This document shows, piece after piece, positions 49,601 through 52,600 of a stretch of DNA of 64,000 nt. Made by a program: the position numbers and the translations under genes. The DNA lies in assembly GCF_009914755.1 (NCBI RefSeq), contig NC_060932.1. One strand, 5' to 3'. This stretch comes from the human T2T-CHM13v2.0 reference genome, Homo sapiens. A model generated the notes under the pieces. That model searched no databases, was not told where the DNA came from, and saw only the letters and a program-made list of their open reading frames with translations. Positions within the stretch are counted from its first letter, which is position 1, and each line of letters starts with the position of its first letter.

Positions 49601-52600
49601 AAGTGCGTGGGGCAGGCCGCCCTACTCAAGCTCCTGTTCCTTAAAGGAAAGCTAGGGGGTGCTCCAAGTCTAGCCCTGAAGCACCAGAACTTTCTTTAAA
49701 ACACACACTGAGACTCTGACTGCAAAAGCCCCCACTAAGTAGCTTCCCCGTCAGGGCGTTGGTACAGGGAGCAGGACTGGGTCAGACCTGAAGGTGGTGG
49801 CACAGATGTTTTTTTCTGCTTTGTGAAAAACAGAGGCTTGCCTTCTCTGAGTGTCAGTGGGGGAGGCCCCAGGAGGTTCTCTCTCAGGCAGCTGCTGGAA
49901 TTACAGCTTCTAAGTTATGTGACAAGAGCCCTGAGCCCACAGTGTCCACTCAGGCCCAGAGCTGACAGCAGCCTTCTGTGGGCCCAGGACCATGTGTCCC
50001 TGTCTCTGTACCCATCCTAGGGTTTGAAGGAAACCGATGCTGCTGCCCCCTGATAAAGGGCTGGGCATGCATGCGTTCTCAGAGGACTGTGTCCTGAGCC
50101 TGGAAGGACTTTTGTCTTCTTAAATATTGAAGCATTCACTGTAAACTTCCATTTCCCAGTTGCCAGCAGCTGTCTTCCCCCACCTCTCCCAGACAGGACC
50201 TCCCCTTTCTGGGCTTTGGCAGGAGAGGGTGAAGTTTTCAAGCCGGGGTGCCCCTCTTTACCCTACTCACCCTTGTTTCCCAAACATCATTAGATGAAAG
50301 CACCCCCGCCAAGAAGACAGACATTCCCTGGCGGCTGAAGCAGATGCTGGATATCCTGGTGTATGAAGAGCAGCAGCAGGCGGCCGCGGGTGAGGCAGGG
50401 CCCTGCCTGGAGTACCTGCTGCAGCACAAGATCCTGGAGACTCTCTGCACGCTGGGCAAGGCCGAGGTGGGAGGCCCTCTGCGCGCTGGGCCAGGCCGAG
50501 GTGGGAGGCCTCTGCGCGCTTGGCCAGGCCGAGGTGGGAGGCCTCTGTGCGCTGGGCCAGGCCGAGGTGGGAGACCCTCTGAGTGCTGGGCCAGGCTGAG
50601 GTGGGCGGTGGGCAGTGGGCAGCCTGGGGCTCCCTGGATTCCAGGCCTTTCTGCCTATGCTCTTCCCAGTCCTGACACTGAAAGTGGCAGTTCGGGCGAG
50701 AGGAGCAAACAGGACGGGCACTGTGGCTGTCTCACTTAGAACACTCCACCATCCCAGCGCTCCTGTTCCCAGTTCACTCCACAAAGATGGGCCTGCCATG
50801 TGCCAGGCTCTGCTCTAGATGCTGGGGACACAGCAGGGATTCATACTGACAAGAGCCAGGCATGGTGATGCGTGCCTGTAGCCCCAGCTACGTGGGAGGC
50901 CGAGGTGGGTGGATTGCTTGAGCCCAGGAGATGGAGGCTGCAGTGAACTGTTATCGTGAGACCGCACTCCTGCCTAGGAGGCAGAGCAAGACACTGTCTC
51001 TTAAAAAAAGGAAAGAAAACTCGACAAGAATCCTAGTGGGAGAGGCAGGACCATCCTGTGATGGGTCAATAATGACCCAGTCATGGAGCACAGTGATGCA
51101 GGAAAAGGGGTTGTGAGTGCCAGGAAGGCCAGTTTCGAACAACGTGGCAAGGGAAGCAGGCCTGTGAGAACGGGCCCTCTGAGCCGGAACTGAGGGAGGA
51201 GTTGAGCCTGGGGCTCTCTGGGGGTGCAGTGTTCCAGGTGGGGGACACAGCTCTGACAGGCGCTCTGTCCCTGGCCTCAGTACCCCCCAGGCATGCGGCA
51301 GGCAGGGGACACGGCTCTGACAGGCGCTCTGTCCCTGGCCTCAGTACCCCCCAGGCATGCGGCAGGCAGGGGACACGGCTCTGACAGGCGCTCTGTCCCT
51401 GGCCTCAGTACCCGCCAGGCATGCGGCAGGCAGGGGACACGGCTCTGACAGGCGCTCTGTCCCTGGCCTCAGTACCCCCCAGGCATGCGGCAGCAGGTGT
51501 TCCAGTTCTTCAGCAAGGTTCTGGCGCAGGTGCAGCACCCCCTGCTGCATTACCTCAGCGTCCACAGGCCTGTGCAGGTGAGGGGCCCGGAAGCCAAGGG
51601 GTGTCTGGGTGTGAGGCCCCCTCTCTCCCCTGCCACCCCTCTCCCCTCTGTTTCTGTCCTGGTGCTCTTCCAGAAACTCCTCCGACTTGGTGGGACTGCT
51701 TCCGGATCCGTTACAGAAAAGGAGGAGGTGCAGTTCACCACCGTCCTCTGCTCCAAGATCCAGCAGGACCCAGAGCTGCTCGCCTACATCCTGGAAGTGA
51801 GCACTCTGATCGGGAACAGGAGGGGGAGGGCCCAGAACCCCAGGGCAAGCCCCCTCTGCCCTCCTGAGGAGGCAGAAGCAGAGATCAGGTACCCGGGAGG
51901 CACGCAGGCAGCTTCCCCTCCAGCTCCAGGCCGACGCCCTGCTGGCAGCCCACCCTGCGGTCCCAGTGGGGGACCCTGGGAAGTGGTCCCCACCAGGCCT
52001 GGCCTCATCTCACCCTCTTTTCAGGGTAAAAAGATTGTAGGTAGGAAGAAAGCATGCGGAGAACCCACTGCCCTGCCTAAGGACACAACCAGCCACGGGG
52101 ACAAGGACTGCTCCCACGATGGTGCTCCTGCCAGGCCCCAGCTGGACGGGGAGTCCTGTGGGGCCCAGGCCTTGAACAGCCACATGCCTGCTGAGACCGA
52201 GGAGCTGGACGGTGGGACCACAGAGAGCAACCTGATTACCTCCCTGCTTGGGCTGTGCCAGAGCAAGGTGCTGGCAGCAGAGATGGAGAGGTTGGGGGTG
52301 GGGGAAGGGTGGGTTGACGGCTGGGGGGTGATTTGGGGGCTCACATGCATGTCCCTGAAGTTGTATCCTCATCCCCTAGAAGAGTCGGGTGGCCTTGAAG
52401 GCCCAGGAGAACCTGCTGCTCCTGGTGAGCATGGCCTCCCCAGCAGCTGCCACCTACCTGGTACAGAGCAGCGCCTGCTGCCCTGCGATCGTCCGGCACC
52501 TTTGCCAGTTGTACCGGTCCATGCCTGTCTTCCTGGACCCCGCAGACATTGCCACCTTAGAGGGCATCAGCTGGAGGTGGGTGCCCAGCCCGGGAAGGCC

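What the first reader, a model, noticed from the sequence alone, without database searches (positions are those of the whole stretch)
50443..51493. FHIP2B intron 3 has both splice sites multiplied by tandem repeats; only 1 of 20 pairings is productive
Seen: five donor copies (GT at 50467, 50501, 50534, 50567, 50601; offsets 0/34/67/100/134) and four acceptor copies (exon starts 51281, 51345, 51409, 51473; 64-nt spacing) bound the same ~1-kb intron. Frame arithmetic: every downstream donor joined to the true acceptor frameshifts. Every upstream acceptor either frameshifts or, when the frame is restored, reads the TGA at 51446-51448, which lies 27 nt before and in frame with exon 4. So only the outermost pair (50466 to 51473) gives the 743-aa protein. 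Inference: the two repeats could form a copy-number-dependent splicing/NMD rheostat for FHIP2B (an FTS-Hook-FHIP dynein adaptor subunit). Two unrelated repeats hitting both ends of one intron is unusual.
Basis: partly seen in the sequence, partly recalled or inferred. Interest (0 to 1): 0.85.

Follow-up and report, generated by a model that had tools for sequence, protein, structure and literature searches.

The report
Splice-site-copying minisatellites flanking FHIP2B intron 3
Two unrelated short tandem repeats have copied the start and the end of one intron of the human gene FHIP2B several times over, a known kind of oddity that is probably tolerated rather than used, although nobody has measured whether the spare copies waste transcripts.

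Summary
A 33/34-bp array (5 units, 50436-50605) straddles the exon 3 donor. An unrelated 64-bp array (4 units, 51241-51497) straddles the exon 4 acceptor. There are five near-identical donors and four identical acceptors. Only 1 of 20 pairings (50466 to 51473) gives the 743-aa protein. The other 19 give premature stops more than 1,500 nt before the last junction.

The used pair is the ancestral one. The chr10 paralogue has its intron at the same codon, with single-copy sites and no repeats.

This is a known kind of structure. Minisatellites whose end unit spans an exon boundary are described for F7 intron 7, CBS, IFI6, LMNB2 and PDGFA, and as "mirages" in amphioxus, at both 5' and 3' boundaries. 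In F7 only the first donor is used, and unit number (1-12) did not change that. In CBS and IFI6 some decoys are used.

The "NMD rheostat" remains an untested inference. I had no RNA, population or primate data, and the gene spans in GRCh38 and CHM13 differ by only 2 bp.

One correction: 12 of the 19 unproductive pairings leave the true pair intact, so a second splice could in principle rescue them.

Verdict: a new member of a known kind, of modest interest.

The parts
50294..50466 (+). FHIP2B exon 3; its last 31 nt lie inside the donor-side array
   Evidence: Hub gene table. The translation is consistent. The paralogue match ends at the same residue.
50436..50605 (+). Donor-side minisatellite, period 33/34, 5.1 copies. 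Units in donor register are 50433-50466 (exonic), 50467-50500, 50501-50533, 50534-50566 and 50567-50600.
   Evidence: TRF; units printed. The exonic unit differs from unit 2 at 7 of 34 positions by my count of the units printed.
50467..50468 (+). Authentic donor GT (GAG|GTGGGA). Decoy GTs are at 50501, 50534, 50567 and 50601.
   Evidence: All five give the same U1 duplex energy, -8.9 kcal/mol, ranking 19th of the window's 35 annotated donors.
50603..50629 (+). G-rich tail after the fifth donor. It fits a four-run G-quadruplex pattern and overlaps a 7-bp x3.1 repeat (50601-50622).
   Evidence: There are 11 G-runs in the 174 nt of array plus tail, against 3 in exon 3 and 0 in exon 4.
50855..51002 (+). 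Alu-like (7SL-derived) fragment in the middle of intron 3; not part of either array
   Evidence: Sub-threshold Rfam Metazoa_SRP match, 50.2 bits, E 2.5e-11; sequence.
51241..51497 (+). Acceptor-side minisatellite, period 64, 4.0 copies (units start at 51241, 51305, 51369, 51433). Its last 25 nt are the start of exon 4.
   Evidence: TRF. Units 1-3 differ from one another by 1-2 bases. Unit 4 differs from them by 3-4 bases, 3 of them in its last 3 nt, where exon 4 continues.
51445..51449 (+). Branch-point-like CTGAC of the last unit, with its A 24 nt before the AG. Copies lie at 51253, 51317 and 51381. Its TGA (51446-51448) is the in-frame stop.
   Evidence: The role as branch point is inferred from the recalled consensus and was not tested.
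51471..51472 (+). Authentic acceptor AG. Decoy AGs are at 51279-80, 51343-44 and 51407-08. A further AG lies 10 nt downstream of each (51289, 51353, 51417, 51481).
51473..51577 (+). FHIP2B exon 4. It is followed by a strong donor, CAG|GTGAGG, the 2nd best of 35 by U1 duplex.
   Evidence: Hub gene table. The paralogue match starts at residue 2.

Best explanation
These are two independent exon-boundary minisatellites of the kind known from F7 intron 7 and from the amphioxus 'mirages'.

In the GC-rich FHIP2B copy of an old phase-0 intron, slippage or unequal exchange duplicated a 34-bp piece across the exon 3 donor. Separately, a 64-bp piece was duplicated across the exon 4 acceptor, including its branch-point-like motif and pyrimidine tract. 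Both arrays grew only on the intron side.

The ancestral, exon-adjacent sites (donor 50466|50467, acceptor 51472|51473) remain the working pair. The four extra donors and three extra acceptors are decoys. They are mostly ignored, because the first donor after the exon and the acceptor next to the real exon are preferred. If a decoy is used, the product is removed by nonsense-mediated decay, or by a second splice in the case of decoy-to-decoy events.

What is shown: the anatomy, the frames and the ancestry of the used pair. What is inferred: the silence of the decoys and the absence of a regulatory role.
For: - The arrays, sites and frames are as described.
- The paralogue on contig C10 has the intron at the same codon. 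It reads ...GGGAAAGCTGAT|GTAAGT and ...ATACCCAG|TGTCCTCCGGGAATG, that is GKAD|CPPGM against GKAE|YPPGM here. Its sites are single-copy and no array spans either junction. The outermost FHIP2B pair is therefore the ancestral one, and the arrays are later additions.
- Both arrays are unique in the T2T genome: 1 match each, the locus itself.
- The hub's RefSeq table lists no alternative exon-3 end or exon-4 start among the 12 transcripts.
- Published precedent, all read in PMC1557585 (abstract, Introduction, section 10, Discussion). In F7, identical pseudo-donors are functional but silent, and only the most upstream donor is used. Unit numbers of 1-6 and 8-12 did not change this. LMNB2 and PDGFA behave likewise.
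- Amphioxus mirages occur at both 5' and 3' boundaries and did not disturb normal splicing (passages of PMC3087553).
- G-runs, which mark intron identity, are dense between the donors (11 in 174 nt). One GGGG sits in each 64-bp unit upstream of the real acceptor, and exon 4 has none. Intronic G-runs and hnRNP H1 enforce the authentic 3' site over a cryptic one 85 nt upstream in THPO (abstract of PMC1802585).
Against: - No RNA evidence was available, so the silence of the decoys is assumed.
- Nothing in the local sequence explains it. All five donors have equal U1 complementarity. The four acceptors are identical over at least 31 nt upstream.
- Predicted accessibility did not single out the used sites consistently. 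The first donor and the last branch point were the most open with a 150-nt window, but not with a 300-nt window.
- In IFI6 and CBS the first two pseudo-donors are used. The CBS VNTR is reported to be associated with reduced activity (reference title and table line only).
- Classical duplicated-site experiments gave contradictory results (Discussion of PMC1557585).
- In F7, mutating the G triplets had no effect, which weakens the G-run argument on the donor side.
- I read no experimental analogue for a naturally multiplied acceptor in a mammal.
- RefSeq tends not to list decay-prone isoforms, so their absence from the gene table is weak evidence.
Confidence: 0.7

Rival explanations
1. The decoys are used at a meaningful rate, each such transcript is destroyed by nonsense-mediated decay, and the wasted share rises with unit number. 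Array length would then set FHIP2B output.
For: 19 of 20 pairings give stops 1,555-1,951 nt upstream of the last junction. The decoys equal the true sites in strength. In CBS and IFI6 pseudo-donors are used. A reference title links CBS VNTR length to lower activity (title and table line only).
Against: In F7, the closest studied case (donor TGG|GTGGGT, 37-bp units), decoys stayed silent at every unit number tested. No decoy junction appears in the hub's RefSeq table. No length difference shows between GRCh38 and CHM13: the gene span is 15,762 against 15,760 bp (and hub table), and the intron-14 coordinates are offset by the same 2 bp. Polymorphism is therefore not shown. 12 of the 19 failures could be rescued by a second splice. 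FAM160B2 was absent from the held supplements of two tandem-repeat catalogues, though one file was not searched.
Confidence: 0.15
2. The decoys help rather than harm. Extra U1-binding donor copies, G-runs and extra branch-point and pyrimidine-tract copies would act as landing pads that strengthen recognition of a middling donor and a G-interrupted pyrimidine tract in a GC-rich intron. More units would then mean more efficient correct splicing.
For: The true donor ranks only 19th of 35 by U1 duplex. The acceptor's pyrimidine content ranks 20th of 33. G-runs are dense in the donor array. Intronic enhancers placed between competing 5' sites favour the upstream site, as cited in section 10 of PMC1557585 (the original paper, PMC232310, was not held).
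Against: Removing or adding units, or mutating G triplets, changed nothing in F7. The paralogue splices the same junction without any repeat. No data exist for FHIP2B itself.
Confidence: 0.08
3. An artefact of assembly or annotation: collapsed or expanded repeats, or a misplaced exon boundary.
For: Tandem repeats are the classic place for assembly errors.
Against: The GRCh38 gene span differs from this T2T window by only 2 bp (against the hub table). Both arrays are unique in the genome. The annotated junction matches the paralogue's at the codon. A transcript using another donor or acceptor would differ in length by 33 nt or more, so the annotated junction is not ambiguous.
Confidence: 0.02

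Closest known systems
F7 intron 7 37-bp minisatellite (Borensztajn et al. 2006, PMC1557585)
   Same: The first unit spans the exon-intron boundary. There are 5-9 identical donors of the GTGGG type (TGG|GTGGGT there, GAG|GTGGGA here). The unit is about 35 bp and contains G triplets. The most upstream donor is the authentic one.
   Different: F7 has an array only at the donor end. Its polymorphism and the silence of its decoys are shown by experiment, and neither is shown here. Some F7 pseudo-sites would keep the frame, whereas none does here.
CBS exon 13-intron 13 31-bp VNTR and the IFI6 (6-16) intron 2 minisatellite
   Same: Both are minisatellites that reiterate the donor.
   Different: In both, the first two pseudo-donors are used constitutively. 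CBS length is reported as linked to enzyme activity (title only). Whether FHIP2B behaves like these or like F7 is unknown.
Amphioxus 'mirages' (Adh3; globin genes BflGb6 and BflGb9; PMC3087553)
   Same: [quoted passage not shown] The units carry AG/GT signals, and regular splicing is kept. BflGb6 duplicates the 3' end of an intron plus the start of the exon, as the 64-bp array does here.
   Different: They occur in a cephalochordate. The units are longer (150-160 bp in the globins). The passages I read do not describe arrays at both ends of the same intron.
Intronic VNTRs that modulate splicing (ABCA7 intron VNTR, PMC5954066; TERT VNTR6-1, PMC11830802)
   Same: Copy number of an intronic minisatellite is linked to splice outcome.
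   Different: I saw only search listings and abstracts. As far as those abstracts say, the arrays lie inside introns and do not duplicate the splice sites themselves.

Membership tests
Exon-boundary minisatellite (F7 IVS7 type / 'mirage') | Tandem array of several units with a period of tens of bases | tested here: met
   33/34 bp x5.1 and 64 bp x4.0
Exon-boundary minisatellite (F7 IVS7 type / 'mirage') | The end unit spans the exon-intron junction, so the splice-site sequence is reiterated inside the intron | tested here: met
   31 nt of exon 3 and 25 nt of exon 4 lie in the arrays. There are 5 donors and 4 acceptors.
Exon-boundary minisatellite (F7 IVS7 type / 'mirage') | The authentic site is the exon-adjacent copy | tested here: met
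   RefSeq junction 50466/51473 (hub table). The same codon position holds in the repeat-free chr10 paralogue.
Exon-boundary minisatellite (F7 IVS7 type / 'mirage') | Length polymorphism between alleles (the V in VNTR) | tested here: inconclusive
   Only two haplotypes could be compared. The GRCh38 and CHM13 gene spans differ by 2 bp (hub table). No population data were available.
Exon-boundary minisatellite (F7 IVS7 type / 'mirage') | Decoy sites are silent or little used in normal RNA | not testable with these tools
   No transcript data were available. The only pointer is the absence of decoy junctions from the hub's RefSeq table.
Regulated unproductive splicing (alternative splicing coupled to NMD) | The alternative junctions create a stop more than about 50 nt upstream of the last exon junction | tested here: met
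   19 of 19 alternative pairings, 1,555-1,951 nt upstream. The 50-nt rule itself is established knowledge, recalled.
Regulated unproductive splicing (alternative splicing coupled to NMD) | The alternative junctions are seen in RNA and rise when decay is blocked | not testable with these tools
   No RNA data. No intron-3 coordinates appear in the hnRNP K knock-down splicing table.
Regulated unproductive splicing (alternative splicing coupled to NMD) | The elements are conserved or respond to a regulator or a dose | tested here: inconclusive
   The paralogue lacks them. Orthologues were not available. The analogue F7 shows no dose effect.

The most novel reading that the evidence does not exclude
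FHIP2B intron 3 is a natural two-sided decoy system. The number of spare donors and spare acceptors, each set by a mutable minisatellite, would determine what share of transcripts is mis-spliced and destroyed. This would give a heritable, stepwise dial on the level of a dynein-adaptor subunit. Whatever the outcome, the locus is a ready-made human test of how the spliceosome chooses among identical sites at both intron ends at once.
Probability: 0.12. Interest if true: 0.65.

Novelty: new member of a known kind. Interest (0 to 1): 0.3.

Why it matters
If the decoys are silent, the locus is a curiosity. It still offers something the single-ended F7 model cannot: identical competing donors and identical competing acceptors in one natural human intron, with the outermost pair chosen at both ends. 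Published duplicated-site experiments disagree on which copy should win, so junction counts here would bear on that question.

If the decoys leak, array length would be a hidden source of variation in FHIP2B expression. Short-read variant calling handles such arrays poorly.

In practical terms, variant interpreters should know two things. A mutation of the first donor or the last acceptor has ready substitutes 33-34 nt or 64 nt away, and all of them shift the frame. Gains or losses of whole intronic units are likely to be benign.

Tried and rejected
- **Pairing between the two arrays.** I tested whether the arrays base-pair to loop out the intron or mask the decoys. The duplex energy was -205.5 kcal/mol, against a mean of -213.1 (sd 9.0) for shuffled partners. 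157 of 200 shuffles were as good or better, and 1 of 8 GC-matched gene segments was better. Rejected.
- **Common origin of the two units.** Rejected.
- **Local accessibility as the reason the outer sites win.** The result depends on the parameters and is inconclusive.
- **PRDM9 hotspot 13-mer (recalled motif).** There are 21 matches in the window, and 0 lie in 50436-51497.
- **A known RNA gene in the intron.** Only a sub-threshold 7SL/Alu match and weak chance-level rows were found.
- **Link to the published hnRNP K-repressed cryptic exon of FAM160B2.** It maps to intron 14, not intron 3.
- **Literature on this locus.**
  - FAM160B2 + VNTR gave 2 papers, both irrelevant.
  - FAM160B2 + tandem repeat gave 1 paper, irrelevant.
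  - FHIP2B alone gave 9 papers. None of the 8 listed titles or abstract openings concerns this intron, and I opened only one of them.
  - FAM160B2 + splicing gave 20 papers. The only specific event I saw in them is the intron-14 cryptic exon, and I opened only that paper.
  - I therefore found no description of these arrays in print. These searches cover main texts only.
- **Supplement look-ups.**
  - There were 0 occurrences in 10 held files of PMC10078293. One file was not searched.
  - There were 0 occurrences in 1 file of PMC11701250.
  - The McCullough and Berget paper (PMC232310) was not held.
- **Pfam check of the protein.** Gene identity rests on the hub's table and the paralogue matches.
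Full report
**What is there**

Reading 50280-51600 and running Tandem Repeats Finder confirm two arrays.
- The first has a 33/34-bp period and 5.1 copies. It lies at 50436-50605, with 90% matches and score 256.
- The second has a 64-bp period and 4.0 copies. It lies at 51241-51497, with 97% matches and score 493. 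That is the top score among the 41 rows for the whole window.

The first array begins 31 nt before the end of FHIP2B exon 3. The second ends 25 nt into exon 4.

In donor register the units are 50433-50466 (exonic), 50467-50500, 50501-50533, 50534-50566 and 50567-50600. The donors read GAG|GTGGGA four times and GAG|GTGGGC once, with GT at 50467, 50501, 50534, 50567 and 50601.

Each 64-bp unit carries three things:
- a branch-point-like CTGAC, whose A lies 24 nt before the AG;
- the tract CGCTCTGTCCCTGGCCTCAG;
- the first 24 nt of exon 4.

Exon-start positions are 51281, 51345, 51409 and 51473. Units 1-3 differ from one another by 1-2 bases. Unit 4 differs from them by 3-4 bases, 3 of them in its last 3 nt, where the real exon continues.

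The two unit sequences are unrelated on either strand. Both arrays are unique in the T2T genome.

**Frames**

I rebuilt all 20 donor-acceptor pairings on the RefSeq coding exons.
- 1 of 20 gives 743 aa.
- The other 19 stop early, at 51318, 51382, 51446, 52027 or 52038. These stops lie 1,555-1,951 nt upstream of the last exon junction, so by the usual position rule (recalled) all are candidates for nonsense-mediated decay.
- That TGA is part of the CTGAC motif. Because 64 leaves remainder 1 on division by 3, the TGAs of three successive units close all three frames. This follows from the arithmetic and need not reflect design.

- Every unit has a second AG 10 nt downstream (CCCCCCAG|G), so the list of conceivable junctions is longer than 20.
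- 12 of the 19 failures join a decoy donor to a decoy acceptor. These leave the true donor, the last branch point and the true acceptor in the RNA, with a residual intron of 98-326 nt. A second splice could in principle still give the correct mRNA. Whether that happens is inference.
- Only 7 pairings consume a true site with a decoy partner and are dead ends from the first step. These are 4 decoy donors joined to the true acceptor and the true donor joined to 3 decoy acceptors.

**Which pair is ancestral**

I searched the window's own genome with the exon 3 and exon 4 peptides. Besides the locus itself, one paralogous locus on contig C10 was found.
- Exon 3 peptide: 115727337-115727498, 65% identity, E 9e-15.
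- Exon 4 peptide: 115729639-115729740, 56% identity, E 2.2e-6.

From its place I take this locus to be FHIP2A, but no call named it.

Its sequence reads ...GGGAAAGCTGAT|GTAAGT and ...ATACCCAG|TGTCCTCCGGGAATGAAACAGCAG. That is GKAD|CPPGMKQQ, against [12 protein letters not shown] here. The intron therefore sits at the same codon boundary (phase 0).

Tandem Repeats Finder found no array across either paralogue junction. The nearest row is an 11-bp x2.2 repeat, score 34, inside the pyrimidine tract. It ends 17 nt before the exon and does not include the AG.

The outermost FHIP2B pair is therefore the old one. The arrays were added later in the GC-rich FHIP2B copy: GC is 74% in the donor array and 70% in the acceptor array.

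The donor array is more diverged than the acceptor array (90% against 97% matches). It is either older or less homogenised. This is inference.

**Is it more than chance?**

I placed the window's 20 arrays of period 10 or more (1,942 bp in all) at random over the 35 annotated introns.
- About 2 junction hits are expected, and 2 were seen.
- Some intron had both junctions hit in 10.4% of 100,000 trials. That figure includes short introns swallowed by a single array.
- Some intron was hit at both ends by two different arrays in 2.3% of 200,000 trials.

This window is unusually rich in introns. Scaled to the whole genome, this is my rough extrapolation and not a computed result: random placement alone would still give on the order of a hundred such introns. 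The arrangement is uncommon but not startling.

**What is known**

Minisatellites whose first unit spans an exon-intron boundary are a described class. The source is the Introduction of PMC1557585.
- F7 intron 7: 37-bp units, 5-9 copies.
- IFI6 (6-16).
- CBS intron 13.
- LMNB2.
- PDGFA intron 4.

In F7 the pseudo-donors work when the first donor is destroyed, but they are never used otherwise. The authors attribute this to 5'-to-3' scanning. Constructs with 1-6 or 8-12 units, or with mutated G triplets, kept the same choice. A review passage repeats this.

In IFI6 and CBS the two nearest pseudo-donors are used. A reference title and a table line report that the CBS VNTR goes with reduced activity; I did not read that paper.

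In amphioxus, "mirages" are minisatellite-like duplications of intron-exon boundaries at either the 5' or the 3' end. They vary in length and are compatible with normal splicing (passages of PMC3087553). The acceptor-side array thus has a described counterpart.

I found no description of arrays at both ends of one intron, and none of these FHIP2B arrays. This rests on full-text searches and two supplement look-ups, with the gaps listed under tried and rejected.

**Why the outer pair might win**

- The five donors are equal in U1 complementarity: -8.9 kcal/mol each, 19th of 35 annotated donors.
- The acceptors are identical upstream. The choice must therefore come from position or from the flanks.
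- On the donor side the F7 rule (first donor after the exon) fits.
- On the acceptor side, only the last copy is followed by real exon 4 and by its strong donor at 51578 (2nd of 35). Each decoy is instead followed by a GGGG run and the next unit's intron signals.
- G-runs are dense between the donors (11 in 174 nt) and absent from exon 4. Intronic G-runs with hnRNP H1 enforce an authentic 3' site over a cryptic one 85 nt upstream in THPO (abstract). In F7, however, G-triplet mutations did nothing.
- Base-pairing between the two arrays is no better than between shuffled sequences.
- Predicted accessibility gives no stable answer.

**The rheostat**

Nothing I could run tests it.
- For it: the CBS and IFI6 precedents, and the equal strength of the decoys.
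- Against it:
  - The F7 experiments found no effect of unit number.
  - The hub's 12 RefSeq transcripts contain no decoy junction. This is weak, because decay-prone forms are rarely listed.
  - The possible rescue of 12 of the 19 failures by a second splice.
  - Variation in length is not shown.

On the last point, the GRCh38 span of the gene is 15,762 bp, at 22,089,150-22,104,911 (table in PMC13163323). In this T2T window it is 15,760 bp. The published intron-14 cryptic exon maps with the same 2-bp offset. The two references therefore carry the same unit numbers unless other indels cancel. Two haplotypes say little about a population.

**Verdict**

The structure is a new, two-sided member of a known kind. 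The tolerated-decoy reading is the most likely (about 0.7).

Noticed in passing
window 55932-56018 (FHIP2B intron 14): The RefSeq 'other transcript' exon is the 87-nt cryptic exon of FAM160B2 that rises from PSI 0.086 to 0.611 on hnRNP K knock-down and was validated in FTLD brain (PMC8423707). Its GRCh38 position is chr8:22101975-22102062. It is C-rich, preceded by TTTCCCCAG and followed by GTGAGC.
   Followed up: partly
window 51229-51237 and 51497-51505: The 9-mer GTGTTCCAG occurs just before the 64-bp array and again just after it, inside exon 4 (codons QVFQ). It may be a relic of an older, longer duplication or a slippage anchor. A donor-like CAG|GTGGGG at 51238 sits at the array's upstream edge.
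   Followed up: partly
window 50603-50629: GGGCGGTGGGCAGTGGGCAGCCTGGGG on the transcribed-sense strand fits a G-quadruplex pattern immediately after the fifth donor.
   Followed up: no
window 50855-51002: An Alu-like 7SL-derived fragment lies in the middle of intron 3 (Rfam Metazoa_SRP, 50.2 bits, below the gathering score). It contains a donor-like GAG|GTGGGT at 50905 that resembles the repeated donor.
   Followed up: no
window 63323-63372 and 63381-63431: Two short arrays lie at the 5' end of NUDT18 (minus strand; exon 1 is 63092-63394). One is a perfect 22-bp x2.3 repeat and the other an 18-bp x2.8 repeat.
   Followed up: no
window 17988-18187 and 3571-3711: A GATG-rich compound minisatellite (periods 20/24/44) lies in a DMTN intron. 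A 52-bp x2.7 repeat lies near the DMTN 5' region.
   Followed up: no
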